From: Blastocystis sp. ATCC 50177/Nand II | Lineage: Eukaryota | DNA: 64,000 bases | Assembly (NCBI GenBank): GCA_039096935.1 | Contig: JBBPEE010000035.1 | Coordinates: forward strand, 186,001 to 250,000 | Reading direction: 5' to 3' | Shown: piece after piece, positions 5,501 to 38,443 of the stretch | How positions within the stretch are numbered: position 1 is the stretch's first letter | Layout of the letters: every line of letters starts with the position of its first letter | Position numbers and translations under genes: made by a program | Notes under the pieces: model-generated | Told to the model about the DNA's origin: nothing | The model's database searches: none | What the model saw: the letters and a program-made list of their open reading frames with translations, nothing else

Positions 5501-5832
5501 CAGTGCAGAGCGAGTGAACGAAATGAGTAGTAGACTGACTGCCTTGCAATGCAACCCGCAGAGCGATAATCCGCAACCCTCAGAGAAGCGCGACACTACT
5601 GACTCCATGATCCACATAAACAGAGAGCCGAAACGAGTGAAACTGGGAATCGACAAGAGCAATCCGCAAAACGGACAAACAAAGAGTAGGCGGATAGAGA
5701 GTGACGTAACGCACAGTATGTTGGAGAGATTACACGAGCAAGGGACAATCCGTCACATCGCATTACTTTACTCCGAAGAAAACAGCGTCCATACTGGACA
5801 GTATTGGAGAGTACGACAGTTCCGTCTACTGA
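2583..5832 (+). CDS. SHOC1: SHOC1/Zip2-like XPF(ERCC4)-domain meiotic crossover protein (spliced)
   Basis: C-terminal XPF-like domain (TIIIDESLLQ..SMVVDVDTGVLL..RYDRLIVVIE), HhH-like segment LTEEETEQQRWYSTIPFVNPFVACFINS, terminal KRVKLG..NGQTKICW motif resembling the SHOC1 C-terminus. 5' exon structure uncertain. Confidence 0.7.
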
Positions 5833-5995
5833 AGATGAACCATGGAGCCCGCTTTGTTCCACATAACCATCAGAAACCATACTGCAGATGAAACCACGCA
5901 TCATCCCTCCCTCAAATGGAAGAATGCAGTGCGCATGGAAGACGCCCGAAATCGGAGCAATTTCCGTTTCTTCATGTCAGAAATTCTTTTGGAAA

Positions 5996-7098
5996 ATGAT
6001 ACACCGATTGGTTGTGCTGACGATCACCCTGTTCTGTCTGTGTACAGCTGGACGTGACTTTTACAAGATTTTGGGCATTGATAAGTAACAGAGTGGAGGA
6101 GGGAGTAATGGGCTAGAAAGGCTTCCGAGTCGCAAATCAAGAGAGCGTACCGAAAGCTGAGTCTGAAGTACCACCCCGATAAGTGCAAGACCGACGAGTG
6201 CAAAGCCAAGTTCATTGATATCCAGGCGGCGTACGACTGCCTGTCGGACGAAAACAAAAGAAGAGTATATGATATGAAGGGCGAAGAGGGCGTGGAGGAG
6301 AGAGAAAAGCAGGGAAGCCAGCAGGGCTTCAACCCCTTCGCCGATATCTTCGGCTTTGGCGGCTTTGGCGGAAAGCAGAGAAACCAGGACATGCAGGCCA
6401 CCGTGCCCGTATCTTTGGAGGACCTGTACAACGGCCGCGAAATGAACTTCAGCATCAACCGCCAGGAGCTCTGCGAGCACTGCCATGGCACGGGTGCCGA
6501 TGATCCCGAGCATGTCCACACGTGCCCTGTGTGCAAGGGCAGCGGCGTCATTCTCCAACGTGTGCAGCTTGCCCCCGGATTCGTGCAGCAGGTGCAGCAG
6601 CCGTGCAGGAAATGCGGCGGCAAGGGAAAGACCTACGACAAGCCGTGCCACGTGTGCCACGGCAACAAGCTGGTCACGAAGCCGCACATGATTTCGGTGG
6701 AGATCGAGCGCGGCATGAAGGATGGAGAGCAGATCACCTTCGAGCACGAGGGCAACCAGCATCCCGATCTGGACCCCGGCCACGTGATCATCGTGCTTCA
6801 GCAGAAGAAGCACCCTCTGTTCACGCGCGATGGAAACGATCTGCGGATGAACTTCAGCATCAGCCTGAAGGACGCGCTGATCGGCTGGAAGAGCCACCTG
6901 ACCCACCTGGACGGTCACCGTGTGGAGTTCGGGAAGGAGGGAATCACGAAGCCCGGAGAGGTGCTGAAGATTGAGGGCGAGGGTATGCCTGTGCACAAGT
7001 TCCCGTCGCAGAAGGGCGATCTTTACATCACGATTACAGTGGTTATGCCGAAGTCGCTGAACGACAAGCAGAAGGAGGCGATCACCACTTTGTTTTAA
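5996..7098 (+). CDS. ER-luminal type I DnaJ co-chaperone (ERdj3/Scj1-like)
   Basis: Signal peptide MIHRLVVLTITLFCLCTAG, J domain (RDFYKILG..YHPDK), CxxCxGxG zinc-finger repeats, DnaJ C-terminal domain; one short intron. Confidence 0.9.
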
Positions 7099-7147
7099 TA
7101 GGGTCTGCTGTTTGTTGCAACAAGGGCAGGCGAATAGTACATGCTAC

Positions 7148-8400
7148 TTAAAGGTCAAAATCAAAATCGTCGATGGAATTCGAGCGAGAGGAGACGGAGA
7201 TCTCGTCCATCATCTCATTCAGCACTACGCCTTACCACCGCCAGCCTCTCCCACAGTGGTTATTTGACGTGAACAAGCGCGATCGCGAGTCATCGTCGTA
7301 GCTACTGCAGGTCACGGTGAAATCCTCCGTGTCAGAGTCCTTGGCCTCCAACTCGTCGTAGAACTCTGAATATGAACCTCACTCTCATCTGGTACGCTTC
7401 AGCTCCAGCTTGGTGGCGAATTGGGCGGCATTGTCCATCTTTCCGTTTCCACTCATGGCCTCGCGGATCTGCTCTCCCAACTCCTTCATCGTGAAGAAGT
7501 CCGCCGGAATGGGAAGGTCGATCACATGCATCGCGCTAATCATTACCGCTGCCCGTTCGGACGAACGATTGGTTCTCGTACTTCTCGTACGAGTGGCACT
7601 TGCTCAGCCAGTTCAGCACGCCGTGGTTCTCCGGGTTCACCACTGCGGTCAGATGCTTGATGCTATTCACCTCAGCAAGCTAGTTGTGAATCCTTTGTAT
7701 CCTCCCTGTACCACGCAGATGGTGTAGAACAGTAACACGCCGATGCCCTGGCCGTGGAACTTGTCGACCACGATTACCGACCACTCGGCAGTCGTTGGGT
7801 CGTTGGGGTCCACAAAGTAGCGAGCCGTTCCCACGCCAGGGTAGCCGGGCTTGTCGAGGATGATGCCCACGCCATTGTGCTGTTTGTAGTCCATGCGGCT
7901 GAAATAGTCCAGCTCCTTTTCCGTAAACGTCTTCTTCGCCGTCGTGAATCGCATGAACAGGGAATTGGAGGAAACATCACCCTTGTTCAGCACTACAGAG
8001 TGAATCACGAAATGGACACGATACCGGAGTGCATCTTGCTGCGGTCTGACGGAATAATCGGCCGCATGATGAAGGTGTCTGTGGGATTCTTCGGAACGGA
8101 GAACCTGCACGTTATCGCTACCCGTTTGCGTTACGATATTGTATGCGCGCTGACAAAATCAATGAGCGTATCGATGGGCGGTAAGTCGGGGAGATTGCTC
8201 TTCACTTTCTCCTTCTTTTCCGATTTCGCCACGATCGTCGTAGACTCCGGCTGCCCCTTCTCCTTTATCTCGGTATCTAGGGATAGTACGTCCACGAACA
8301 CAAATGTACTCTTCTTTTCTACGGGGGGCTCTACATGGGTTTCTTCTCCTCCCTGACCTCCGAATGCCCTGCCAAAGAAAGAAAACAGTCCTTTGAACAT
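7148..8400 (-). CDS. GNAT-family N-acetyltransferase (bacterial-like), spliced
   Basis: SLFMRFTTAKK..ELDYFSRMDY..GVGTARYF..AEWSVIVVDKFHGQGIG motif A; acidic tail ending DFDFDL-TAA after a 30-nt intron. Confidence 0.8.
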
Positions 8401-8528
8401 TCGAAAAGAATAACTACGTAAGAGATGATCCGGAAAAGACCTCCGCACAGTTCGGGAAATCCCCGCGGCGAAGGGCAAATGACAAGAAAACCGATCGCTC
8501 ATGTCGTGTAACAAACACCGCACGCATA

Positions 8529-11500
8529 TCACTCTGCTCTGTGCTCTGCCGATCCCTGGTCATCGCGCTTCACGTCCGTGGGAACTGTGGGCGAGTAGGC
8601 GGGAGATGTTGGGGAATAAGCAGGAGAAGTAGGAGAATAAGCAGGGGACGTGGGCGAGTAGGCAGGGGACGTGGGGGAGTATGCCGGCGAGGTGGGGGAG
8701 TAAGCTGGGCTCGTGGGGGAGTAGGCGGGAGATGTGGGAGAATATGCTGGAGAAGTAGGGGAATATGCCGGTGAAGTAGGGGAGTATGCCGGCGAGGTAG
8801 GAGAGTAGGCAGGGCTCGTTGGCGAATATGCCGGACTGGTAGGGGAATAGGCGGGAGAAGTAGGGGAATAGGCGGGACTGGTAGGGGAATAAGCAGGGGA
8901 AGTGGGCGAATAAGCAGGCGAGGTGGGCGAGTACGCCGGGCTCGTTGGCGAGTAGGCCGGACTCGTTGGCGAATACGCAGGGGAAGTGGGCGAATACGCC
9001 GGACTGGTGGGCGAATACGCAGGTGACGTCGGAGAGTACGCCGGACTGGTGGGCGAATACGCCGGACTGGTGGGAGAGTAAGCAGGACTGCTGGGCGAGT
9101 AGCCGGGCGAGGCGGCGCGGTAGCCGTTGTAGCCGCGGTCGCCCGCGTCGGCAGCTCCAGAAGAGTAGCTGGGCGAGGTGAGCCCGCGGCCGAAGTCCTG
9201 CTCGAAGACGCCGGGCGAGGCGGGGCCGTACTCGGGCGAGAACTGGGGCGACTGGCCGGAGGAGGCATCGAAGAGGTTGTTCATCGACGGCGAGCTGAAG
9301 GGCAGCACGCGGTCGTTGTCGTCCAGCGTGAAGCGATCCGCCAGCTCGTCGCCGTCCGGCGCCACGTCCACCGCCTCGCTGAGCTTCTTGGTGTCGAGAT
9401 AGACGTCGAAGACGCCAGTGCCGGTGTGCAGCAGCTGACCCGTCATCACATTCTCCGACACGCCCAGCAGCTTGTCCTTCTCGCTGAACAGCGCCGCCTC
9501 CATAAACACCTCCTGCGTCTCCTCGAAGGAGGCTTTCTGCAGCGGGGAGGCGTCGATGCGGTTGATGCCGTTGCGCGTAATGGGCATGAGGAAGCCCTTG
9601 TAGGTCATCACGTCGCACAGCATGGACAGGTGCCGGTGGTTCACGTACGAGCCGTCGAAGCTGATGACCATGCGCACTTCCTTCATGATCGCGCGCCGCG
9701 CCGCCTCGATGCCCAGCACCTCGAAGATCTCGCGCACGTCGTTCGTGTAGATCTTCGTGAAGTCCAGCGACTCCTCCGCCATCGCGCCGCGCAGATTGGA
9801 GCCATCCGTCTGCAGCACGAACTCCTTGCGGTCGCTCATCTTGACCTCGTCGGTGTCCTCGATCTCGTTGATGTTGTCCTCGCTGATGTACACCGTGTCG
9901 ATGCCCTTGGTGCCGAACAGCACGAACTGCGACAGCAGCACGTTCAGCAGACTCTTCAGCATCTCGTTCCCGCTCACCTGCGCGTCGCCGCTGTTCTCCT
10001 CCTCCTTCAGCAGCCGGATCTGAATCACCGGGTTGTAGTCATTCTCCGTGGAGGCGATCGTGTTCAGCTTCAGCGGGATGAACTCCTTGATGCGCTCCGC
10101 GATGATCTGAGGCGACACCTTCTTCGCCACGATCATTTGCTGGTTCAGCGCCAGTCGCAGCATCCACGACGACAGCGTCGCCGGGTCGATGTCCTCCGTG
10201 TCGAAATAGCCCTTCACCAGCTCCGCGTCCTGCCGACACACCGTGTTGCGCGGGTCGGGGTCATAATAAATCTCCGCAGACGCCAGCAGCTTGTCCAGCG
10301 TGGTCAGCCCCAGCGTGTTCTGGATGCGCTGCGCCGCCTCCTTGCTCTCACGCAGGTCCTTGCGCAGACGCAGCGTCATGGTGGGCGTGCTGATGTTCGC
10401 CACCACGTTGATGATCTCCTCCAGACGCGGCACGCCCAGCGTCACGTTCTTGGCGGACACGCCAGCGAAGTGGAAGGTGTTCAGCGTCATCTGCGTGGCG
10501 GGCTCGCCGATGGACTGCGCCGCCACGATGCCGCACACCTCGCCGGGGTTGACCTGCGCCTTGAGGAAGCGGTTCTCGATCTCGGCGATCAGCCAGTCGA
10601 AGGCCTTCACGGTGAGACGGTGCTCCTTCATCAGCGGCTTCGTGGCGAGCATGGACCGCGCAAAGATCGAGAAGAGCAGCTTGGCGTTGTCCTGCGATTC
10701 GGGCATGCCCACGCTCTTGCTCACGACGCACAGCCGGTCCAGCAGCGCCTTCACCTCGCGCAGGATGTACCCGGGGTCCAGGTCCGAGCAGCCGTTCGGG
10801 TCCACGCGGAAGCGCGACTCGGCGCTCCAGAGCAGGCGGCCGATGTTGACGGGCAGGTGGAAGTTGGAGATGTCCTGGATCTTCTGGTCGGTCACCGACA
10901 CGATGTTGCGCAGGTTGGTGCGATCCTCCTGCAGCTGCGCGAACTCCGCCTCCAGCTCGTGCTGCAGGCTCAGCGACTTGCGGATCTGTTCCACGGTCGC
11001 TATACATCACACCCCACGCCCTCGCCCACAAGGCGCCACCCACGTGCGCTCGCTGCTGCCGACGAACTCCAGACGGTAGTCACTCAGGTCCCAGCGGTAC
11101 TTCTCCGTCATCTTCTTCAGGTCCATGTGCAGCGTGGGAATGCTCTGATCTTCGATCCACCGCGAGTCCATGCCGTCCTCGCCGTACAGGAACTGCACGA
11201 TCTGCCCGCGGCTGTTGCGCACCGTGCCGTCGTAGTACACCATCAGGTCCTCCATCGACTTGATCAGGCGCCGCTGGATGTAGCCCGTGCGCGACGTCTT
11301 CACGGCCGTGTCGATCACGCCCTCGCGGCCGCCCTGCGCGTGGAAGTAGAACTCTTGCGGCGTCAGCCCCTTCAGGTAGCTGTTCACCACGAACCCGCGC
11401 GACTCCGCGCCGAGGTCATCCTTGCAGAAGTGCGGCAGCGTGCGGTAGCGGAAGCCGTACGCGATTCGCTTGCCGTCGACGTTCTGCTGGCCCACGCAGC

Positions 11501-14017
11501 CGCTGATCTGCTGGATGTTCAGCGGGCCGCCCTTGGAGCCGGCCACGGTCATGGCCTGCAGGCTGTTGTCGCTGCGCAGGTGCTTCATCAGCTCCTTCTG
11601 TGTCTGCTTGGCCATGCTGTTCAGCTCGTTGTTCACGCTGAACTCGAAGAACTGCTCGATCGTCTTGCCCGGCTGCTTCTCCAGCTGCTTGTGCTGGCCC
11701 TGCTGGATCAGCTGCGTCACCTTCACCTTCGCCTTCGCGATCAGCTCCATGATGTTCTGCACCGTCGACGGCGCCGGCACCATGTCCCCCAGACCCACCG
11801 AGAACCCGCGGTTCATCAACCAGTAGTTCACCATGCGCTGGTTCAGTCCGAGGAAGTCGCGCGCCGCCTCCGGCCCCTTGTCGTTCATCAGCACGTGCGT
11901 GATGCCGCCGCTCTTGGTGTTGCCGATGGAGTTCTTGTCAATGATGCCCATCAGCAGCTCGCCCTCCAGGATCATCACCTCTGTGTCCATCGCGTTCAGC
12001 CGCAGCTTGCTGTCCTTGCTGTACGACGTCGAGAACCGCTTCAGGTTGATGTCCTTCTACGCCTCATTTTGACTCACCACACCCACCGGCAACAGCATCG
12101 AGTACAGCTGCTTGCCCGTCCACAGCGGCGTGACCTTGCCGCGCTCATCGCGCACCATCACGGCCGGCACGGGAATGTTGCCGTCGAAGTTGTCCACCCA
12201 CATCAGCATGTTCATCGTCATGTCCTTCGGGATGAAGGTGTCGCGCTGCGTCAGCTTCTGCGAGCCCAGCAGCGTATCCTGCACGATGCCCATCACCGGG
12301 CCGTTGCTCTTCGGCGATATGATGTTCTTGTGCACCATCATCAGCTGCGTCACCTCCGCGCGCGCCTCCACCGTCTATGCATCAAATCCGCCAGCCTGCC
12401 GGACTTGAGGCACGTGGATGTTCATCTCGTCGCCGTCGAAATCGGCGTTGTACGGCGTGGTGCAGGACAGGTTGAGGCGGAAGGTGGAGTAGTCCAGCAC
12501 GCGCACGCGGTGGCCCATGATGGACATCTTGTGGAGCGACGGCTGCCGGTTGAACAGCACGATGTCGCCGTCGTTGATGTGTCGCTCCACGATCATGCCC
12601 TCCTTCAGCGCCGGCACCTACGCCTCACACGCTCCACGCACACCCACGCCCGGCGTGTACCGCAGGTCGTGCCGCACGCCGTCCGTGTCGATCAGGTACT
12701 TGGCGCCGGGCCACTCGTCCTTGCGCGCCACCAGCTCCGACAGCTTCTTGATGTTGTACCGCGTCACGCGCTCGGGGAACGTCAGGATCGTCGCCAGCGA
12801 CCGCGGCACGCCCACCTCGTCGATGTCGATCGTCGGGTCTGCCGTGATCACCGACCGCCCGCTGAAGTTCACACGCTTGCCCATCAGGTTGCCGCGCACG
12901 CGGCCCGTCTTGCCCTACGCCTTAGCGCCGCGCGCTGCACCCACCTTGATGCGCTGCCGGAAGGTCTTGAGCGGACGTTTGTTCTTCTGCGTGGCGCGCA
13001 CCACGCCCGCGCGCTCGTTGTCGATGTAGTTGCTGTAGTAGATTTGCAGCATGTCCTGGTCCGCGCTCATCTCGTTCGTCGCCTTGCCGCGATACTTCTA
13101 CGCCTCACGCGCTGCGGTGGGATGCACGTCGCCCATGATCGTAATGTTGACTTTCAGAATGTTCGACAGCGCGAACGTGATATCGTCCTCGCTGAGCGTC
13201 GTGCTGCCGGGGAGCATCACGGAGGGGCGCACGGCGATCGGAGGCACCTGATGATCATGCGCATGTCACGCGCTCACGGGGATGTCGCTGAGGATCATGT
13301 ACTCCGGCTTCACCGTCGGGTAGTCGAATCCCATGAAGCGCGCGTCCTCCGGGGAAATGTGGCGGAAGATGTCCTTCACCTTCGAGGGGGAGATGAACTC
13401 GCTCTCCTCCTGGCCGTCCTCGGCCATCAGCGTCATTTTGATCTTCAGACTACGCCTCAGACAGCCCGGGCGGGATTACCCCTCGCGGCGGTACTTGACG
13501 CGGCGCTGACCGCATCCTCCCCTCTTCTTGTCGCACACCTTCACGTTCTTCGCGCGCTCGAACACTTCGTGCAGGCGCTGCGCATTATCCATGCTCTCGA
13601 AGTCTGGAATCTCTCCGTAGTGCACCAGACAGCGGCTGCAGTGGAAGCACACGCTAGACAGCACGCGGTATCTACGCCGTCACGAATTCGCCGCAGAGGA
13701 AACATGGCTTCCAGAAATCCCACGTGGAAGATTTCTGCATTGAGGTGAATGTGGCCGAAGTGGCCCGGACAGTCTTCATATTTGCGATGGCAAGTTTCGC
13801 AGACATCGGACCTGCCCACCGTTCCGAGGCGCGGATCGTTCAGGCCTCCCCGGACGGGCTTTCCGTTCACTGCGATCTCCACACGATACACGCCATCCTG
13901 CTCACCGTCCTTCCCCTCCGTTACCGAGTTCTTAATCACTTCTTCCGGAGAGAGAATGCTGAAGTCAATCTCGCGGATCGGGCGAAGAGGCGCTACAGTT
14001 CCGTATAGTGGTGGCAT
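8529..14017 (-). CDS. RPB1: RNA polymerase II largest subunit (multi-intron)
   Basis: [20 protein letters not shown], catalytic [24 protein letters not shown]-terminal heptad repeats. Confidence 0.99.
8586..9101 (-). repeat. Pol II CTD 21-bp coding repeat: 1x YSPSSPA + 23x YSPTSPA + partial YSPT
   Basis: 516-nt tandem array translated directly; synonymous sites vary between units. Confidence 0.95.
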
Positions 14018-15797: not shown

Positions 15798-17192
15798 TGC
15801 GTTATTCTGACAAAGCAGTAGATGCCAAATGTTCCCCCTATTTCCGTGATCGGGTTTGTTCAGTTCTTTGAACAGCCAGTTCGGTTTCGCTCCCTCTTCT
15901 TTCTTCATGAACCCCTTTCTGCGGCGTGTAGGAGTCGTATGGAATGGTTTATCCCCCAGAAAACCGAGAATGCCCCAGCAGCTCCCTCCTTTGCTCATCA
16001 GGAGGTGCAGCCTTTATCGTCAACCCTTCCTCCGCCTCCTCTTCATTCTTCTCAACAATCCATCCCTCCTGCTCCAATTGCCCCTTCCCTTTCCTCGTAC
16101 CCTGCTGCTTCCATGGTAATCCTAATGGAATAGTCCGTCCTCTCTTCCCCCTCCTCCCTCTGGAATGTACTCTTCTACCCCGATTCCAGTCCAGCCACAA
16201 CGGGCAAAGCAAGGAAGAACTGCCGCCGATCTGTACGCGCAGCGTGCCCCTGCTGTCCGCGATACAGCAGGGATTCAGCAACCCAACTCGCATCCTGTGC
16301 AGGAGCCGGATTACACACCCGCTCCCATCTACCAAGAACCCGTTCCCATTGTGGTTTGGTTTCACTCCCAGCCAGCAGAGGTGATTCCTCCCGAGCAGCG
16401 TGTCAGCGGTGCCGCCATTCCCCATCCAGAAGTCCGTTATGCTGCTCCTGTGAAGTGTGCCACAGATGATCCGCAAGTGTCTCTCCCGCTGGCCGGAGAT
16501 CCCATCGAAGTGATCGAGGGAATGAACAGCTCCCCTCTCTTCATGCGTGCCTCCGCCAACACTCTCGCCGAGGAGCGATCCATGATGAACGCCATTCTCT
16601 CCGGCAACGACACCTCCTTCAGCACGGGACTCGGAATCGTTCTGACTCCCTTCACCAAGAATGCATCTCTTCTTTCACCTCGTGATGATTAGCAATCCAT
16701 CACCCGCATCGATCGTACTCATGGCATTCCCCGTTGCTCCCACTGCCGCGGCTACATCAACTGCTTCTGCACCTTCCTCGCCAACGCCACTCGCTTCTGC
16801 TGCAACCTCTGTGGCGAAGAATCCGACCTGCCCGACTGGTTCCGCGGTTATGTTCCCTCTTTGGCGGGCTCCGCGCCCACCACGCCAGAACTGCAGGGAG
16901 GGAGTTTCGAGGCCGTGGTGGACGCCGCACAATTCAACATGCACCCGTTACCGGTGCGTGTGCGGAGAGCGTTTGATGCATAGTCCGACACCTTCGTGTT
17001 CGTGATCGATTGTTCCGTCGTGGCGGTGAACTCGGGACTGTTGCGCGCCGCCTGCGACGCCGTGCGTGCGGCGGCGGCGCTGCTGGCGGAGAAGCACAAC
17101 GGCAGTCGTGTGGGGTTCGTGATGTGCGACGTGCGATGTCGGTACATCGGGTGCGTGAAGGGTCGGTTGACAGAGAAGATCGACGCCGATTA

Positions 17193-17238
17193 AAGTAGTG
17201 GCACAAACCCCTGAAATGGCACAAACCCCGGAACGACC
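17193..17238 (+). repeat. left TIR (contains TGGCACAAACCCC twice)
   Basis: AAGTAGTGGCACAAACCCCTGAAATGGCACAAACCCCGGAACGACC is the exact reverse complement of 18869-18914. Confidence 0.97.
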
Positions 17239-17470
17239 ACCGGCGAAACGCCCACTACCCTGCCCAATGGATAGTACATGAAGAGTTATTAGGGTTAAGC
17301 CATAGATAGTCAAGAGCTCCTATGGAAGAATCTGGAGAAAAACGGTCCTCAAATCTCATTGGTCGACCGTATCTTTCGTCATTTCTCCCCCACAAGGCCT
17401 ATTTCTTCAAACCCTTTTGCATTTTCTTTGTGTTTACAACAAAACACTATCACACCGAATTTGGCCAGGC

Positions 17471-18718
17471 TCAGAACAGCTTCACTCCCGTCAATCGCGA
17501 TTTCCGGCAATTGCGGCGTTCTTCGTTCTTCTCCGGCAGCTGAGCTAGGATGGAGGAGTGGTCATCAGAAAGCAGTGTCGTTCGCTTCCAGGCCTGCAGG
17601 ATGTTGCTTCTTGTGAAGGCATCCGAAAAGGCGTTTCTAGAAGCATCGAGCACGGCTTCTATCCCGTTGCTCTTGCAGTACTCCTTGAGGTGGGTCTTAT
17701 AGGGACTATAGATCCCCACGTCCAGGGGTTGGAGGAGAGCAGTGGTCTTCGCAGGCAGGATGACCATATGGATGTTTTCACTTCTTAAAGCTCGCTCCAC
17801 AGCCTTGTCATACCGACTTGCGTGCGCATCTGCTATTATCAGGGCATGTCTATCCTTGTTGTTGCCTCTGATCTGATTTACCGCGGGAATCAGCAGATCG
17901 CGCATCCACCGAGCTAAGCTCTCATTGCTCATCCAACCCTTCGCGGACTGGGCAATGTAGTTATTATCCAAATGAATCTTCTCCAGAATCGGCGCGAGGC
18001 GCTTTCTGGGAGGGATAATGTAATACTCGGGTAATGCCAGACCCGCCCCCGAGATACAGCCTACCAGAGTATAGTGCTCTCTCGGATTGCCCTGCTTCTT
18101 GGTAGGGATATCCCCACGGGCATGAGCTACTTTACAGCGCGGCGCCTTGTCCTGGGGCGAGATCCACGATTCGTCAAAATTGAAAACAAGATCAGGTGTA
18201 ATTCCGTACTCTTTCAGAACCTTACCCACGAGAGCGAAGAACTCGCTCGCCTCATCAATGGATAGTAGTTTCTTAGTAGTATAGGAATTGCAACACTTAT
18301 CCAGCAAAAGCCCCCCCTCCCCCAAGATTTTGCGAATGTACCCTCTGGACACCAATCTCCGGTTATGCAAAACGGCGGGGCGTTTGGCCCGGACAATGTC
18401 CGTAACATACTCGCGCATCTCCTTCATAGTTGCACAATTACCCTCATGGGACTTGCACTCCACCCAGTCCCAAAATTCGACCTTTTCCACATCTCGAAGA
18501 TAGGGTGGTCTCCCGTTGCGCCCAACCTCCCTCCCCTCTTTCATCGCATTCACTGCACTATAGTAGGATGATTTGGAGAGTTTCAGTTTCTTCTGAAGAA
18601 GTTGATTGGAATCGACATCATCGCAATTCACATCGCCGCTCAGCCGTTTGATGGCGCTGAACTTCTTTCTGGGTGAGGTTTGATTCCTCACTTCACTCCT
18701 TGCAAACACGCGGTTCAT
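17471..18718 (-). CDS. pogo-like DDE_1/CENP-B-type transposase
   Basis: HTH region with GRPPYL; catalytic triad VFNFDESW / IIADAHASR / LQPLDVG with 35 residues between D2 and D3; intronless; first ATG at 18718 (the ORF track starts at a TTG at 18745). Confidence 0.93.
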   Translation of the reverse strand: MNRVFARSEVRNQTSPRKKFSAIKRLSGDVNCDDVDSNQLLQKKLKLSKSSYYSAVNAMKEGREVGRNGRPPYLRDVEKVEFWDWVECKSHEGNCATMKEMREYVTDIVRAKRPAVLHNRRLVSRGYIRKILGEGGLLLDKCCNSYTTKKLLSIDEASEFFALVGKVLKEYGITPDLVFNFDESWISPQDKAPRCKVAHARGDIPTKKQGNPREHYTLVGCISGAGLALPEYYIIPPRKRLAPILEKIHLDNNYIAQSAKGWMSNESLARWMRDLLIPAVNQIRGNNKDRHALIIADAHASRYDKAVERALRSENIHMVILPAKTTALLQPLDVGIYSPYKTHLKEYCKSNGIEAVLDASRNAFSDAFTRSNILQAWKRTTLLSDDHSSILAQLPEKNEERRNCRKSRLTGVKLF

Positions 18719-18773
18719 CTCAAAGAAATAATGAAGATTGGCCAAAAAGGTAATGATTTCTGTTATTCGTTTT

Positions 18774-18803
18774 GGAAGATTCTGGAAGATTCTAGAACAT
18801 TTG
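18774..18803. promoter_or_regulatory. heat-shock element (five perfect alternating nGAAn units) upstream of the transposase
   Basis: gGAAgaTTCtgGAAgaTTCtaGAAcaTTT, about 56 bp 5' of the transposase ATG. Confidence 0.65.
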
Positions 18804-18868
18804 ATTGAATAAACATGTTTCTTACACTAATACCTATCCACATGAAAATTGGTGAAAAAGAACTAAGA

Positions 18869-18914
18869 GGTCGTTCCGGGGTTTGTGCCATTTCAGGGGT
18901 TTGTGCCACTACTT
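18869..18914 (-). repeat. right TIR
   Basis: Exact inverted copy of 17193-17238. Confidence 0.97.
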
Positions 18915-20860
18915 TATGAGAGTGCCTTTGCCTGCGTGCAGCCCGACGCCTGGCTCCTCTCCGTGAATGAGACCACCCTTCCGGATGTAACACAGTGATG
19001 GGAGTGTCAGTCGCAGATCAATCGCATCGTCGCTTACATCTTGGCGCACGCCTCCTCCTCCACCACCTCCACGCACGCCATTCTGCCTGCTGCGCTCAAG
19101 GCGGTGGCTTCCATCTTGCAACCCTGTGGCGGACACGTGATCGCGGTGCAGGGCAGCTATGCCATCGGCGAGGGCAGTTCGCAGGTGTGCGAGGGCGTAC
19201 GGACCTACGGCACCACCGAGGAGTCTTCTCTGTGGGGTTGGAGAAGTGAAATCACGATTAGGTATTCGCTCAATGTCACCACCGGCTTCTACGAGACGCT
19301 GGCGGTCATGTGTCTGCGCTCCAACACGACCATCCACCTCATTGCGGGCGGCAGCACCGACGCCTTCTTCAGTATCTGCAATCTCCAGGAGGTGTTGCTT
19401 CAATCGGGAGGCTCGCTGCGTTATACCACCGCGCTCAGCTCCGTTTTCAAGGAGCACGCGTTGGCAGACCTGCATGCCGCAATTCAGCTGCTCGTGCTCA
19501 GACCCATCGCTCGTTACGTCTCGGGGAAGCTCCGTCTCAGCCCGGGTATTCCTATTCCCATTGCTTCATCGTAGGCCTCTCTGTCGCTGCCTACCACGGC
19601 GGAATCACCTACGACGAATCGAGGGCGTTCTGCACTGCGGGTATGACCTCCGAGGATTCCGTCGTAGCGGAGGTGGAGATGGACCGCTACATCACCGGAC
19701 CGTACGCCTACGCGCAGTTTGCCGTATTATATCCTGTTTGGGAGCATTTGCGCGTAAGCGTCCTTTATTCACGTTCTACAATGAAACGAACGAGTGCTGT
19801 CTCCGTGTGTTCAACCACCGCTTCCCCGTCTCCACGGACTACCGAACCGTTCTGTTGTTGATTTGGCGTTATTAGTAGATCTACCACAATCTGGACTTCT
19901 CCGCCTATTTCCTGACGCTGGTGCGCGCGACAGTGAGTCACATGAGCGAGGACACGGTCTACAACATCCGGAACAAACTGAGCGAGGTGGTTGCCAATGT
20001 GCTTGCCGCATATCGCAACAACGTGTGCTACTCGTCCCCGAAGTGTCCTGATGATCGAATCGCGTTAGACGTAGCGCAATTGAATCTGCCAGAATCACTC
20101 TCTCTCCTTCCTCTGTTCCTGAACAGTCTTCTCAAAACCCCGTTGCTGGCGATGTCTCCGATGAACACCTCCGCGAATCTGCAATCCATCTATCCCCGCG
20201 GGGATCTTCGTGCCTACTGGAAATGGGTGCATCATGGGCTCGAAATTGAGGGGTAGTTGTGCTACACGCAGTCCGCGGAGCGAGTGCTGAATGCCGTGTA
20301 CCCGCGGTTATACCGGCTGGACGAGGCGAAGTCCGACTGGGGCGAGGAGAATGAGGGTCATCTCGTCATGCCGGACCGGCTGCCCTGCTCCGGCGCGGCG
20401 CTGACCCACGACGGCGTGTTCCTGCTGGCGTGTGACGAAGCGTGTGGATTGAGGCGTGGCGTGAGGTGTAGACTGTTCGTGGTGGTGGGCAAGACGGTGA
20501 CGGCGGAGCTGTGCGGGCGGCTGTTCGGCGTGGCGACGGTCGTGAACAGCGTGCACGGCGCGTCGCTGAGTCTGCTGCAGTCGGAGGACTTGCTTGTGCA
20601 GAGGGTGTGGCGTGTGGTGGAGCGAGTGAAGGAGGAGCTGGGCGAGGAGCTTCAGGTGCGGATTGTGGTACGTGGGGAGAAGGAGATGAACGAGGTGAGT
20701 CTGCTGCTGCGCGACGACCGCATCCGGCTGGACGGCAGTCTGTCGGAGTTCGTGTGTGAGTTCTTCAAGCGTGTTTTAGCCAAGTACAAGTGATGTGTTT
20801 GTTGGACACGAATCATCTCCTATGCATTTCAAATCATAAGGTGACTTCAACAAACACGCC

Positions 20861-22520
20861 ACAGTCCCAGCTTCACCACCGCTCTGTTGCCGCAGCCCGC
20901 CAGCAGGTACTCCGCCTTCGCGCCGAACACCGCCGCGTGATAGCCCTTCACCGCCTCCGCATGCTCGAACGTCTCCTCCCACGTCTTCGTGCTCCACACC
21001 TTCAGCGCCTCTCCCGCTCCGCACAGGTAGGTTCCCGAGTAGTCGAAGCACACCGCATTCACCGCGGAGCCCATCGCCAGGTTCTGAAGACAGCTGCCGT
21101 TGCGCAGGTCCCACACCTTCACCACCTCGTCCTTCGCGCCGCTCGCCATGTAGTACCCGTTCTCGCTGAACGCCAGCCCGCGCACGGCGCCCGCGTGCTC
21201 CGCCAGCGTCACCGCCACCTTCTGGCTTCGCATGTCCCATACCTGCACCGCGCCGCTCGACGCGCCCACGCCCAACAGCAGTCCGTCGGGGTGGAACTGG
21301 ATCGTCTCGGGCGTGGCGTCTACGACTCACACACCCTCGCAGCACACACCCTCCAGACCGCACGCCACCGTCTGCACGGCGCGCGCCGCGGCGATGTCGT
21401 AGAAGCACCACGCGCCGTCGCGGCCGCAGCTGCAGAAGAACTCGCCCACGGGCTGCAACGCCACGCCCGTGACCTCCGCGCTGTGCTGCCTGAACACCGT
21501 GGGCCGCTCCTCTGCCGTCAGCCCTCACGCCCACACTCACGGTCCACCCACAGACGCACCGTCTTGTCGTCCGAGCCGGAAATCACCACCTCGCGCGTCG
21601 GGTGCAGCACGACCGAATTCACCGCCTTTTTGTGCCCCGTGAAGTTGCGACGCACCTTGCGCTCCGCCACGTTGTACAGAAGCACCTGACCGTCCTCGCC
21701 GCCGCTCAGCACCAGGTCCGGCTGCTCCGCACGCTGCGCCACGCACTTCACCGCGGGACTCGCCGTCTTGTGGGCGGTGTAGGAAGCCACCACCTTCCAT
21801 TCCTTCATGGCCTCGGGAGTGCACAGGTCGTCGGGGATCTTGCGCTTGGGGCGGGTCTTGAAGCTCTCCTTCGCCTTCTTCTCCATCTTCGTCATCATCT
21901 CGTCGGAAATCTTGTCCTCCACCTCCATTTCCGCCTCCGGCACGGCCACCGGAGCTGCCTGCACGCTATATGTGAAAAAGAAATCCAACTTTTACTTGGC
22001 GAGCGCCTCGCGGGCAGCATCACGCTCCTTGATGAGTCTGGCGATTACGCGGCATGCAGCTTCGTGCTGGTAGAGGGCCTGACTCAATTCCTGGCGGACG
22101 GCCTGCAGATGCTTCTTGAGCGTGAACGACTCGAGCATCATGCTGTCCCACTCGTTCTGAAGGGAGACAAGTAGACCGGGAATGCTAGTGGCGGGAACAG
22201 GCTTCGGCTTCACGATGGGCTGCGCTAGGAAGAATGAGGAGACTAGGAGGAAAGCAAACTCTTCACGTCGATCAGGTCGTCCACGTCCAGCTCCACGCCC
22301 GTAATCGGACACTTGCCCTCCGTTTTGATGTACCTATCGCGTGATCAAGAGGGCGCTCCCGTCTACTTTGTAATCAGACTCTTCTCATATATATAGCCCG
22401 TCTTCTTGGAGATCACGGGCTCTCTAGGCACTTCTCCCGAAACTACACAGGGGTGAGCGGCAGCCCTTCCCGAGAGAGGAAACACACAAAGAGGCAAAGA
22501 GACGCACTTGCACAGAACAT
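20861..22520 (-). CDS. PRP19: pre-mRNA processing factor 19 (U-box + WD40); stop probably poly(A)-generated
   Basis: [29 protein letters not shown]-box, [34 protein letters not shown] coiled coil, WD40 repeats; ends KLGL-T|GGCG|TGTTTGTT. Confidence 0.95.
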
Positions 22521-34162: not shown

Positions 34163-37100
34163 CTAAAACTTGATTGTTGCTCTCTTGTTCCTGAAAGTCA
34201 TACCCTCACGTTTGTAGGCTGTCTCGTACACACTTGGATTACCAACACGACGCAATATATGACCGTCTTTGTCTTCTCTATATCCATGTCTCAAGTACCC
34301 CTTCTCAAATAGCCCCTCTTCAACATAATCATTAATATAACGGAACCCAGCATAATACTGCAAGTTGCGAACAATTCCCAAAAACACCTTCTTGCCGTTT
34401 TCCTCTACAATACAATCAGTAATCTCATTAATCGTATGGAAGTCACCGCCATACATGCGTCCATGTATTCCTAAGGCACCATTGTTTAAAGACACACAGA
34501 AATCACGCTGCAAAGAAACACTACCGATGTAATACGCGACTTTGACATCTCCAATTGGAACAATACTCTCCTTAAGAGAATCCGTCGATACAGAATACTT
34601 GTTTCCATCAAGAAGAACATAAAACTCACCCTTCTCTGGAAGAAAGTTCTTCAAGCTCCCCTTATACAATAGTGTCTTCTGATCATACACTCTCCATTCA
34701 TTCCCATTCTCATCATTCACAAATGTCGATTCAAACACAAACCCATTCTTGTTTGTCATCCGAAAAACGCCACTCTTCTTTCCATTCTTCCACGTTCCCT
34801 TGAGTTGGTATTTTCCACAAAACTCCGTTCCATTGCCATGACGACAATCATTGTCGAATTCCCCCTCATACACCTTCGTTCCTTTCTCAAACTCTTCACC
34901 ACGGCCATACCGATAACCGCGGAAATACCCTCCACGATACACAAGAATACGACTCTCATCATACTCTTCACCATTCCCATTAGGAACATATAGCCAATTC
35001 TTGTAAGTGTTTCGCGTGTTCTCCGTCCACCACGATTTTTCATTCCGTTGTACACCTCCTTTGTACAACACGTTACCCCGCGTTGAACGAATAACCATGT
35101 TCCCATCCTTAGCAAACTGGTACGTCCTCTTCCCATCACTCTCGTCTATCTGTGTCACGCGATTGCTATTGCGCGTCTTTTCTCCGTTCCTCACTCCATT
35201 CTTCCATTCACCATCATACAACAATCTTTCATAAGTATCATACTCCTTTCCATGTCCACTCCTCACTCCATTCTTCCATTCACCATCATACACCTTCTTA
35301 CCATTCGCATACTCCACGCCTTTTCCACTCCTCTTTCCTTTCTTCCATTCACCGTCATACAACAGTCCATCATTACCATCATATTCCTTTCCCCTTCCAT
35401 TCCTCACGGGAACGGTCAAGGCGCCTTCAACACACATTGCCAAATCACCCTGATAAACCACTCCAGAAGCAGCATCATAAACCAGTCCATTCAGGTAATC
35501 AATAGTCTGATGATTCCTGTAATAATAGTGCGAAGTGACATTCCTCTCCCCTCTCTCCGTCTTTCTCTCAACCAATCGCACGTCTCGAAATCGTTTGTCC
35601 ACAGTGATGCTCTCCTCAGAGAACACTTGCTTCAGCTGCTTCTGAGTGCACTTGTATATCATTGTCACCTTCTCTCCCTCATTATCAAAAGAAAGCTCCA
35701 CAATTCCATTTCCCTTACTCACGATGCTGCAGGAGTCATATACCAGACTGTCATACACCTTCTCATCATTGTCCAGAACGCTATAACGCAGCGTCGCCTT
35801 CTCTCCATTCACCACAAATACATACCTCACATCCCATTTCATGCCCTGTTTTGTAGACTCAATGTACTCATGTCCCATCACCATTTCCCCATTCTCGAAG
35901 GTTCCACTGGTTGTTCTCGTTCCCACCGTCATGTTACCCTTACCACTGATCGGCTGAGCAAAACCGCCCAGATACTGGAAGGGTGCAGTCATACTGTCCA
36001 TCGTATACGTTCTCCACTGCCCATTGCGATACACCCGAATGGTCCCCTTCACCAACTCCCCATTCCGCCATTCCCCCTTCGCGTTCTCTCCATCCCTTCC
36101 AGTCATCGTTCCTTGACCATTCGGAACACCATCCACACAGCAGCCTTTGAACACTAGCACTCCATTCACCCGAAAGGAGACTTCTCCCTCCTGCCTTCCG
36201 TTGTTCATACGGAATCTCTTCTCCACAGTCACCTCCTCACCGTTCTCTCTCTTCACACTCTTCACACTCACGTTACCATTCCACACAACCTTCATGAAGC
36301 CCAAATCAAGCACATTATCTCCATTCTCATCCGTCGCCTCCACTCCATAACCGGAAATAGCCTCACCCTTCTCATTCACATAGTTCTCGATCTCCACCAC
36401 ACCGTTCTCAACCACCACCGAACACGGCTCTCCATTCGTCAGGAACTTGTAGCCCTTCTTCGGCTTGCCATCCACCCATTCTCCCACCGACGGAATCCGA
36501 TCGAACTCCTCGCGAGAACACTCAACCAACCCAGCCAGCGTCACACGCGGATTCCAGCACATCACCAGCTTGTCCTTCGCCACCATGATTCCCTTGCCGT
36601 CGAACATACCATCCTTGAAGTACCCGCAGTACTCCAGCTCGCCCCTCTCCGTCACACCCTTCGCGAACAGCTTGCCAAAGCCACAGAATACTCCACTCTT
36701 AAAGGCGCCCTCGTACTTCACGTACTTGGCGCCCGAATTGTTCCGCACGGGGTAGTACAACACTCCATTTCCCTCCATTTGGTACTCCTCGTCCACCTCG
36801 CCAGCGTAGACCAGCGTACTGTTCGTGAACAGCTGACCGCTCTTGGGGACGCCGTGCGAGAAGGAACCCGTGAAGGAGTGGAGGTGGTCAAAATAGGTGC
36901 CGTACCCGTCATACTTCCCCTCGGCGTCGAAGAAGCCCTCGTATAACGGGCTGTTCTCGTCATCGTCGGTGTACACCATGCCCAGCACGCACTTCCACTG
37001 CTGCGTCACATAGCCCGTGAACACGTGAATGGGCCTGGAGTCCTCGTTCTGGTGGTACAGCTCAACGAATGACGTTCCCGTCATATCACGAGCCTGTGAG

Positions 37101-38443
37101 TCGGGCTTGGATGCAATCAGCTTGTCAATTCTCTTCTTCGTGCTTTCATCCCAACCCGAGGCAAACGGTCTTTCATCACGATACTCACAGGTGTAGAACA
37201 GCCCATTATTAAGGAACTTATTCCCTTTCACTTTCTTCCCATCCTTGAAGGTGCCCTGAAAGAGCACCACACGCTTGCCATTTACATCTCTATACTCCTT
37301 TCCCTGACCATCTGGAACACCATTCTTGCGATCTCCTTCATACCAAGGAAAGGCATCCTCATGACTCCACTCTCGTTGACTCGACTGCTCCGAACTGTAC
37401 ACTGGGCTGATGACAGTGTCGGTGAGGATATTCAAATTGGAGCAGGAATCGTCTTCTTGTTTTAAGGAATGGACTCGATTCACAAGAGCCAGGATCACTT
37501 TTGATTCTTCCTCGTCGATTAGCCTCTCCAGAGAATCCGTCACAAATGGATACTAGTCATCACTCACATTTATCGCCACTCACACGCATCAGCTCTCGCA
37601 CAGAAGCCCGCTCATTCACATCCTTCACCAAGCATCTCTTCACAAACCCAACAAAGGCACCAGACCAGATCGAGGAGGTGAGAGACGGAGGATCATGGAA
37701 GCAAACCGCCTTCGTGATTTGGGCATTTGACTCGCATGATTGATAAGGATTCTTCCCTTCCGCCATTTCAATCAGTGAAATGCCCAACGACCACACATCA
37801 CTCTTCATCACTGTTTTCCCATCAAAGACCTCTGGAGCCATGTAACACAGTGTACCAATTTCTCCACTCCGTACTGAATTCGAGTGATTCAACTGTTCCG
37901 CTAAACCGAAATCTCCGACCTTGATTAGTCCATTCTGGGAAATGAGCAGATTTGCCGGTTTGATATCCTAGAGAGAAATGAAAGAGCAAATTAGAATACC
38001 CTGTGGATGATCTTTCTTCTATGAAGATAATCCAACGCAAGCAAGCAGCAACTGGTGATATCGCGGAGTTCCGGCTCTGTCAGGTGGTTTTCGCTTGTTA
38101 TGTAGTCCTGTAGCGATCCGTGTTTACAATACTCCATTACAATCTACTCAGGTTAATTGGCAATAGCAATCCAACCCAAAGTGATCCTTTGTCTTTAACA
38201 AGGTCGTTATATTTCACAATATAGTTGGAAGTACACCATTTCAAGTTGTCAGAATCAGTTTCTACACACCCTGAACTTGCACCACCGTTGAGTTTCTTTA
38301 GCGCCACCATGGTGTGTGTATCCTTATCCAGTGCTTTATATACGCTACCAAAACCCCTATTCCATTATCGGCATCCACTGTATTAACCCCGTTCCAAGTT
38401 GTGTCCTAATAGTGTACCTTCCTGCAATAACCTCCCCTTCCAT
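34163..38443 (-). CDS. STE20-like Ser/Thr kinase fused to a long MORN-repeat region
   Basis: Spliced kinase: GTG/GFGSVYKA, HRDIKPANLL, DFG, GTLCYMAPE, DVWSLGI; joined by a ~30-nt intron near 37554-37583 to a 3.4-kb exon with YDGEWKNG.R.G.GKEY repeats. Confidence 0.8.

What the first reader, a model, noticed from the sequence alone, without database searches (positions are those of the whole stretch)
18774..18803. Heat-shock element wired into a pogo transposon: a candidate stress-inducible DNA transposon
Seen: between the TIR and the transposase ATG lies GAA-ga-TTC-tg-GAA-ga-TTC-ta-GAA (five perfect alternating nGAAn units, with in-register TTT on both sides), about 56 bp upstream of the start. 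Fifteen fixed bases make a chance hit in 64 kb unlikely. Established: such arrays are high-affinity HSF binding sites, and HSE capture drives heat activation of the plant retrotransposon ONSEN. Inference: this DD35D element may couple cut-and-paste transposition to host stress (fever, oxygen, excretion) in a gut protist. I do not know of this being described.
Basis: partly seen in the sequence, partly recalled or inferred. Interest (0 to 1): 0.85.

Follow-up and report, generated by a model that had tools for sequence, protein, structure and literature searches.

The report
Heat-shock motif upstream of Blastocystis transposase
A young, still-jumping cut-and-paste transposon of the gut protist Blastocystis carries a perfect five-unit heat-shock-element sequence just upstream of its transposase gene, which likely lets a host heat-shock factor switch the transposase on under stress, but binding and induction are untested.

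Summary
Five perfect alternating nGAAn units lie at 18774-18798, 57-79 nt upstream of the ATG of an intact DD35D pogo (Fot-like) transposase. It is the only run of four or more units in 64 kb (about 0.001 expected). The 10-bp duplication does not explain it away: three perfect units remain without it.

The element is young and mobile: copies are 99% identical at other TA sites, and two runs show the empty Sec24 site. Blastocystis assemblies encode two HSF-domain genes each. One live-looking sister copy keeps the array; one dead copy has a broken unit. A family at 52% identity has a leader peptide compatible with three units at -69 to -57, but this is inferred from protein only, and a closer family lacks it.

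No stress data, binding data or start-site data were obtainable. Best reading (0.45): an HSF-bound, stress-raised transposase promoter. Rivals: inert by-product (0.28), constitutive or non-heat HSF use (0.2). HSE capture is known for LTR elements and Helitrons. My searches found no validated case for a TIR element's own transposase. Verdict: new variant of a known kind.

The parts
17193..18914 (-). pogo (Fot-like) DNA transposon, 1722 bp, between TA duplications at 17191-17192 and 18915-18916
   Evidence: TIRs; empty-site joint skipping 1724 nt in runs X15 and X19; 99% identical copies at other TA sites
18869..18916 (-). 5' terminal inverted repeat (48 nt counting the TA), with two 18-bp direct repeats, the likely transposase binding sites (inferred)
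17191..17238 (+). 3' terminal inverted repeat, 100% complementary to the 5' one
18774..18798 (.). five perfect alternating nGAAn units (heat-shock-element consensus), flanked by one-mismatch units; contains an exact 10-bp tandem duplication
17471..18718 (-). intact transposase ORF, 415 aa from ATG; N-terminal HTH_psq/HTH_Tnp_Tc5-like region, DDE_1 domain, D182/D297/D333 (DD35D)
18763..18816 (-). short out-of-frame upstream ORF (ATG 98 nt upstream of the transposase ATG) running over the array; the same frame is open from an ATG inside the TIR
   Evidence: sequence
17438..17446 (-). one-base-insertion variant of the Blastocystis polyadenylation motif, about 25 nt after the transposase stop (function inferred)
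   Evidence: motif from PMC5608401 passages
17274..17305 (+). 32-nt GT..AG intron on the strand opposite the transposase; splicing would join an ATG in the 3' TIR (17216) to a frame open to 17616 (122 aa)
   Evidence: joint in 4 contigs of run X15 only, 25 letters on its short side; translation
16996..20793 (+). host Sec24-like gene (part); the element sits in a coding exon and puts a stop in frame
   Evidence: Sec23_trunk and Sec23_BS hits on both sides; frame continuous across the empty site

Best explanation
The five-unit array in the leader of this mobile pogo element is likely a binding site for a Blastocystis heat-shock factor and would act as the transposase's own stress-raised promoter element. 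Steps: (1) shown: the array, its place 57-79 nt upstream of the ATG, an intact transposase and recent mobility. (2) From a published table: the host genus has two HSF-domain genes per genome. (3) Inferred from established HSF biology: HSF trimers bind the array cooperatively when activated by proteotoxic stress (heat, oxygen exposure, excretion). (4) Inferred: transcription starts in the AT-rich stretch between array and ATG, and more transposase is made. (5) Inferred and weakest: excision and insertion rise. A 3-unit element likely came first and a 10-bp slippage enlarged it to 5 units.
For: Chance is excluded. After removing the duplication 3 perfect units remain; 108 of 20,000 shuffles of that leader reach 3 or more, and shuffle plus a random 10-bp duplication gives 5 units in 14 of 40,000. 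IPR000232 (HSF DNA-binding domain) is listed in 2 genes in each of 5 mammalian-strain assemblies (PMC10690189 supplement file 7). The array is intact in L002, which differs at 3 nearby leader positions, and in contigs of X1 and X15; X1 may be the window's own source. The one broken unit is in L001, a copy with an internal stop and a damaged TIR. In the 52%-identical family (P0004 cluster) the called leader peptide is compatible with GAA-TTC-GAA at -69 to -57 from the aligned Met. Random leaders are compatible in that band in 1.3% of 4,000 trials, and this site scores highest of 106 compatible sites in 59,979 residues of 149 related proteins. Base rate: 4 of 6 HSE-bearing LTR families in a flatworm were strongly heat-induced (PMC12801592 passages). 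Weak hints for a start downstream of the array: in X15 one contig of depth 1,477 spans leader and array while listed ORF contigs have 5,535-11,864, and an X19 contig stops at 18751.
Against: There is no binding, induction or start-site result. Contig depth cannot rank parts of a gene, and contigs in X15 and X18 do cross the array. Sister copies are 99% identical everywhere, so retention says little, and 1 of 2 sister loci has a broken core unit. The distant-family signal is back-inferred from protein (probability of the motif given the peptide alone is 0.18). That peptide aligns with the extension of the P0054 family (p=0.004), so it may be coding. The P0054 family is the closer relative on the tree and has no 3-unit-compatible site in its visible leader. 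No host HSF-target promoter was available as a positive control: no genome is held, and the window's DnaJ looks ER-type and has no HSE. In Drosophila, TIR insertions including one pogo copy with a predicted HSF motif showed no heat response (PMC6649756 table).
Confidence: 0.45

Rival explanations
1. The array is an inert by-product. Codons of an old N-terminal extension, or an AT-rich leader, happened to hold three units; one 10-bp slippage made five; the young family carries it along without function.
For: The array contains the window's only exact 10-bp tandem duplication. A duplication at 10 of 130 sites of the de-duplicated leader gives 5 units. The transposase frame is open for 36 codons upstream of the ATG, through the array, and two other families have called extensions that align with each other. 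L001 has a broken unit. The closer P0054 family lacks the motif.
Against: It needs a chance 3-unit site (about 0.5% of shuffles) plus a duplication on it (14 of 40,000 jointly). It does not explain the best-scoring compatible site at the same distance from the start in a distant family. With HSF in the cell, a perfect 5-unit array in an AT-rich leader would be hard not to bind (established knowledge, inference).
Confidence: 0.28
2. An HSF-domain protein binds the array but drives constitutive or stage-specific expression, or modulates a promoter lying in the TIR, rather than coupling transposition to stress.
For: Element RNA is abundant in X15, with listed contigs in the thousands against 43-457 for spliced host mRNA contigs, under unknown conditions. 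Both TIRs are identical and hold an ATG; contigs cross the array; a spliced opposite-strand RNA at the other end suggests inward-facing transcription from a TIR. Yeast HSF binds constitutively, and stramenopile HSFs serve many non-heat roles (recalled; PMC7017206 passage says diatom HSFs are of unknown function).
Against: Blastocystis has only two HSF-domain genes, so at least one is likely the stress regulator (inference). Element contigs in X19 are far shallower (8-59 for listed ones), though that is another strain with diverged copies.
Confidence: 0.2
3. The array is a subterminal binding site for the transposase itself (autoregulation or synapsis).
For: It lies 116-140 nt from the end. A degenerate look-alike (12 of 15) lies at 17324-17338 near the other end (family D7).
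Against: It does not resemble the 18-bp repeats in the TIRs. The look-alike family also has a member outside the element at 22228, so it is likely chance.
Confidence: 0.05

Closest known systems
ONSEN/ATCOPIA78 (Arabidopsis) and HSE-bearing Ty3 LTR families of Macrostomum lignano
   Same: A canonical HSE in the element's own promoter; there HSF binding or HSE dependence was shown (PMC5056178 and PMC12801592 passages).
   Different: They are retrotransposons, where the transcript is the transposition intermediate. Here only the enzyme supply would rise, and nothing is validated.
Caenorhabditis Helitrons with HSEs (Helitron1_CE)
   Same: DNA transposons carrying HSF-1-bound HSEs (PMC6927752 abstract).
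   Different: They are rolling-circle elements, and the emphasis is on rewiring nearby host genes. Here it is one compact array before a DDD transposase in a TIR element.
Cryptococcus TCN3/TCN12
   Same: Putative HSEs in elements that move at 37 C in a host-associated microbial eukaryote (PMC12810828 passages).
   Different: LTR retrotransposons of a fungus.
OPHIO1/OPHIO2 of Ophiostoma
   Same: Stress-induced mobility of DNA transposons (title only, in reference lists). That they are Fot1/pogo-type with a putative heat-shock motif is recalled, not checked.
   Different: The paper is not held, so its mechanism was not seen. It may be the nearest precedent and could lower novelty.
pogo superfamily, Fot/Fot-like family
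   Same: DD35D, DDE_1, HTH_psq/HTH_Tnp_Tc5-like N-terminus, 40-60 bp TIR and TA target; Fot-like elements occur in stramenopiles (PMC7386202 passages).
   Different: It belongs to a distinct clade with few close relatives. No tree against reference Fot or Passer transposases was possible.

Membership tests
pogo superfamily (Fot/Fot-like) | DDE_1 catalytic domain with DD35D triad | tested here: met
   PF03184 E=4.6e-16; D182/D297/D333, spacing 35; Foldseek top hits Mos1, low-confidence model
pogo superfamily (Fot/Fot-like) | N-terminal HTH_psq and/or HTH_Tnp_Tc5 DNA-binding domain | tested here: inconclusive
   Pfam finds none in 6 of 6 members; Atlas feature search of residues 10-150 gives HTH_Tnp_Tc5/HTH_psq clusters at 0.95
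pogo superfamily (Fot/Fot-like) | TIR of 40-60 bp and TA, TAA or TAAA target duplication | tested here: met
   46-bp TIR plus TA; empty site restores a single TA
pogo superfamily (Fot/Fot-like) | phylogenetic placement in Fot/Fot-like rather than Passer (also DD35D) | not tested
   no named reference transposases were on hand; the tree holds only this clade
heat shock element | three or more contiguous alternating nGAAn units | tested here: met
   5 perfect units
heat shock element | host encodes an HSF | tested here: met
   genus level only: IPR000232 in 2 genes in each of 5 mammalian-strain assemblies; this genome itself could not be searched
heat shock element | lies upstream of the transcription start | tested here: inconclusive
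   depth step in X15 and contig end in X19 point that way; X15 and X18 contigs cross the array; all runs are contigs
heat shock element | bound by HSF | not testable with these tools
   needs EMSA, ChIP or CUT&RUN
stress-activated transposon (ONSEN type) | HSE-dependent induction of transcription and of transposition | not testable with these tools
   run conditions are coded and unknown
stress-activated transposon (ONSEN type) | motif conserved beyond its neighbours | tested here: inconclusive
   intact in L002, broken in dead L001; protein-inferred in 1 of 2 informative distant families

The most novel reading that the evidence does not exclude
A clade of Blastocystis pogo elements has kept or repeatedly gained an HSF array at a fixed distance from the transposase start. 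That would make it a cut-and-paste TIR transposon whose own transposase is driven directly by the host heat-shock factor, so that fever, oxygen or excretion trigger strain-specific bursts that knock out genes such as a Sec24 paralogue, checked by a convergent spliced antisense transcript from the other end.
Probability: 0.3. Interest if true: 0.7.

Novelty: new variant of a known kind. Interest (0 to 1): 0.45.

Why it matters
Direct HSF control is validated for LTR elements and Helitrons. The most recent paper I read on it (PMC12801592 passages) lists no TIR element and notes failed validation in Drosophila. A confirmed case would extend the convergence to cut-and-paste elements and to stramenopiles. 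It would tie genome change in the commonest gut protist to its stress cycle, and could help explain strain differences such as 44 DDE_1 genes in one assembly against 0 in four others. It would also offer a native inducible promoter and an intact transposase for an organism short of genetic tools. If false, it is an ordinary young pogo copy with a lucky repeat.

Tried and rejected
Whole-genome survey of copies and of host hsp promoters: no genome is held.

Window DnaJ as positive control: rejected. It appears to carry a signal peptide (ER type, my reading) and has no HSE upstream.

A 44-nt intron that would join the TIR/leader frame to the transposase over part of the array: no such joint in the 7 runs laid; X15 and X18 contigs are unspliced there.

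The element being spliced out of Sec24 mRNA: rejected, the joint ends are not GT..AG and match the empty DNA site.

Hairpin or structured RNA: z-score +1.14; no Rfam match.

X15 against X19 as a stress contrast: rejected. X19 holds diverged copies, conditions are unknown, and contig depth is a poor measure of expression. X21 and X22 gave no cover, which proves nothing.

PDB sequence search with the family profile: 0 hits. Earlier findings: 4 look-ups, all empty.

Literature: searches found no paper on a Blastocystis pogo element or on a validated HSE-driven TIR transposase; searches found none on Blastocystis HSF. The library holds only open-licence papers, and most supplements of PMC5608401 were not searched.

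Full report
Observation. The array is as described. On the + strand, 18775-18797 holds five perfect alternating GAA/TTC units with 5-bp spacing, and a one-mismatch unit on each side. It is the only run of four or more perfect units in the window. About 0.001 five-unit runs are expected in 64 kb; none arose in 100 Markov simulations or in 20,000 shuffles of the 150-nt leader. It spans 57-79 nt upstream of the transposase ATG at 18718 on the - strand.

The element. Perfect 48-nt inverted repeats (17191-17238 and 18869-18916, counting the TA) bound a 1722-bp element, each with two 18-bp direct repeats. It is the only copy in the window. The ORF is intact, 415 aa from ATG, with DDE_1 and DD35D spacing. 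A low-confidence model (pLDDT 54) matches Mos1 best. The N-terminal part resembles HTH_Tnp_Tc5/HTH_psq clusters in the Atlas at 0.95, although Pfam finds no such domain. By the criteria in PMC7386202 (passages) this fits pogo, Fot-like; placement against Passer was not tested.

The host. It is Blastocystis: 18 TGTTTGTT motifs against about 1 expected (motif from PMC5608401 passages), introns of 30-37 nt in RNA contigs, and a named Blastocystis Prp19 hit for the neighbouring gene.

Mobility. The copy interrupts a coding exon of a Sec24-like gene; Sec24 is reported as expanded in the genus. A joint skipping 1724 nt, the empty site, stands in 2 of the 4 runs (X15, X19; 29 letters on the short side). 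Two metagenome copies are 99.1% and 98.8% identical at other TA sites. Of 24 runs listed, 20 hold part of the element and 15 hold half or more of its words, mostly pig gut metagenomes. The protein cluster has 193 members.

Is it just a duplication? The array contains the window's only exact 10-bp tandem duplication. Removing one copy leaves three perfect units, which 108 of 20,000 shuffles reach. Shuffling plus a random 10-bp duplication gives five units in 14 of 40,000 trials; given the real three-unit leader, 10 of 130 duplication sites do. So slippage likely enlarged a pre-existing canonical element.

Conservation. L002 keeps all five units and differs at three nearby leader positions. L001 has one core unit broken and is dead: internal stop, shortened TIR. 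At 1% divergence neither says much. Contigs over the array carry 0 differences in X1 (possibly the window's own source) and X15, and 3 differences at unlisted places over 151 nt in X18; 3 of the 7 runs laid cover it.

Distant families. These could be read only through called N-terminal extensions. In the P0004 family (52% identity) the extension is compatible with GAA-TTC-GAA at -69 to -57 from the aligned Met, and two spacers must differ from the window's. Random leaders are compatible in that band in 1.3% of 4,000 trials. The site is the best of 106 compatible sites in 59,979 residues of 149 representatives; the 150th row, P0003, was left out because it had been scanned. Against this: the peptide alone gives the motif only probability 0.18; the extension aligns with that of the P0054 family (p=0.004), so it may be coding; and P0054, the closer family, has no compatible site in its visible leader. 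P0003, P0005 and P0055 show too little leader to test.

Host factor. Supplement file 7 of PMC10690189 lists two HSF-domain genes in each of five mammalian-strain assemblies, and DDE_1 genes as 44 in one and 0 in four. It lists one Piwi and one PAZ gene in each, and no Dicer row was found. This genome could not be searched, and no host HSF-target promoter was available as a control.

RNA. All runs are contigs, which cannot show strand, start or level, so these are hints. X15 behaves as RNA, since host introns are spliced. Its listed contigs over the ORF have depth 5,535-11,864, against 43-457 for host mRNA contigs. One contig of 1,477 spans leader and array, and one of 2,294 spans the stop region. 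An X19 contig ends at 18751, 23 nt downstream of the array, but X18 crosses the array. A 32-nt GT..AG joint on the opposite strand at 17274-17305 (4 contigs, X15 only, 25 letters on the short side) points to a spliced convergent transcript from the 3' end. No stress contrast was available.

Mechanism. Most likely (0.45), an HSF binds the array and raises transposase transcription under proteotoxic stress. The motif, its position, the intact enzyme and mobility are shown. HSF presence comes from a published table at genus level. Binding, start site, induction and increased jumping are inferred. Rivals: an inert by-product of old coding sequence plus slippage (0.28), constitutive or non-heat HSF use (0.2), a transposase binding site (0.05).

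Comparison with what is known. HSE capture is established for ONSEN (PMC5056178 passages), for flatworm LTR families, 4 of 6 induced (PMC12801592 abstract and passages), and for Caenorhabditis Helitrons (PMC6927752 abstract); it is proposed for Cryptococcus TCN3/TCN12 (PMC12810828 passages; review passages of PMC7329337). A Drosophila pogo copy with a predicted HSF motif gave no heat response (PMC6649756 table). Stress-induced mobility of the OPHIO DNA transposons was seen as a title only; their pogo type and a putative heat-shock motif are recalled. Searches found no validated HSE-driven TIR transposase and no account of this element, within an open-licence library.

Verdict. The feature is real and well placed, and its function is plausible but unproven. 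It is a new variant of a known kind. Interest 0.45.

Noticed in passing
window 17216-17616 (+), intron 17274-17305: Spliced RNA on the strand opposite the transposase; splicing would link an ATG in the 3' TIR to a 122-codon frame overlapping the transposase end. Possibly a convergent regulatory transcript or second gene, or read-through from a host promoter. Seen in X15 only.
   Followed up: partly
window 17191-18916 within the Sec24-like gene: The insertion disrupts a coding exon of a Sec24 paralogue; the empty allele stands in two runs, so the insertion is recent or polymorphic.
   Followed up: yes
L001 and L002 flanks: Copies 99% identical to the window's sit in DNA of 36-40% GC against 56% here. 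Subtype genomes range from 39.6 to 54.6% GC, so transfer between subtypes is possible; AT-rich regions of one subtype are the alternative.
   Followed up: partly
protein P0006 (cluster of 6): The first 76 residues of this transposase are fused in frame to a PF13359 (DDE_Tnp_4, Harbinger type as recalled) domain: a nested insertion or a chimeric element behind the same leader.
   Followed up: no
run X19, window 18100-18672: Diverged copies (up to 13 differences in 172 nt) and an internally deleted derivative skipping 571 nt.
   Followed up: no
protein P0055 family: The third catalytic Asp is replaced by Tyr while the frame is full length, on contigs up to 32 kb: possibly a domesticated or regulatory derivative.
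   Followed up: no
protein P0054 family: Most members have Thr where relatives P0145 and P0273 have Met, at the position of the window's start; they use either a long N-terminal extension or a near-cognate start.
   Followed up: partly
window 20185 to 16693, run X1: One contig of depth 3 goes back 3493 nt within the Sec24-like gene; a back-splice, rearrangement or artefact.
   Followed up: no
window 5975-7098 (+): Type-I DnaJ with an apparent signal peptide and no HSE upstream.
   Followed up: yes
window 34166-37552 (-): Intron-free 1129-codon frame with MORN repeats in lower-GC DNA; holds the only other 3-unit nGAAn run, inside coding sequence.
   Followed up: no
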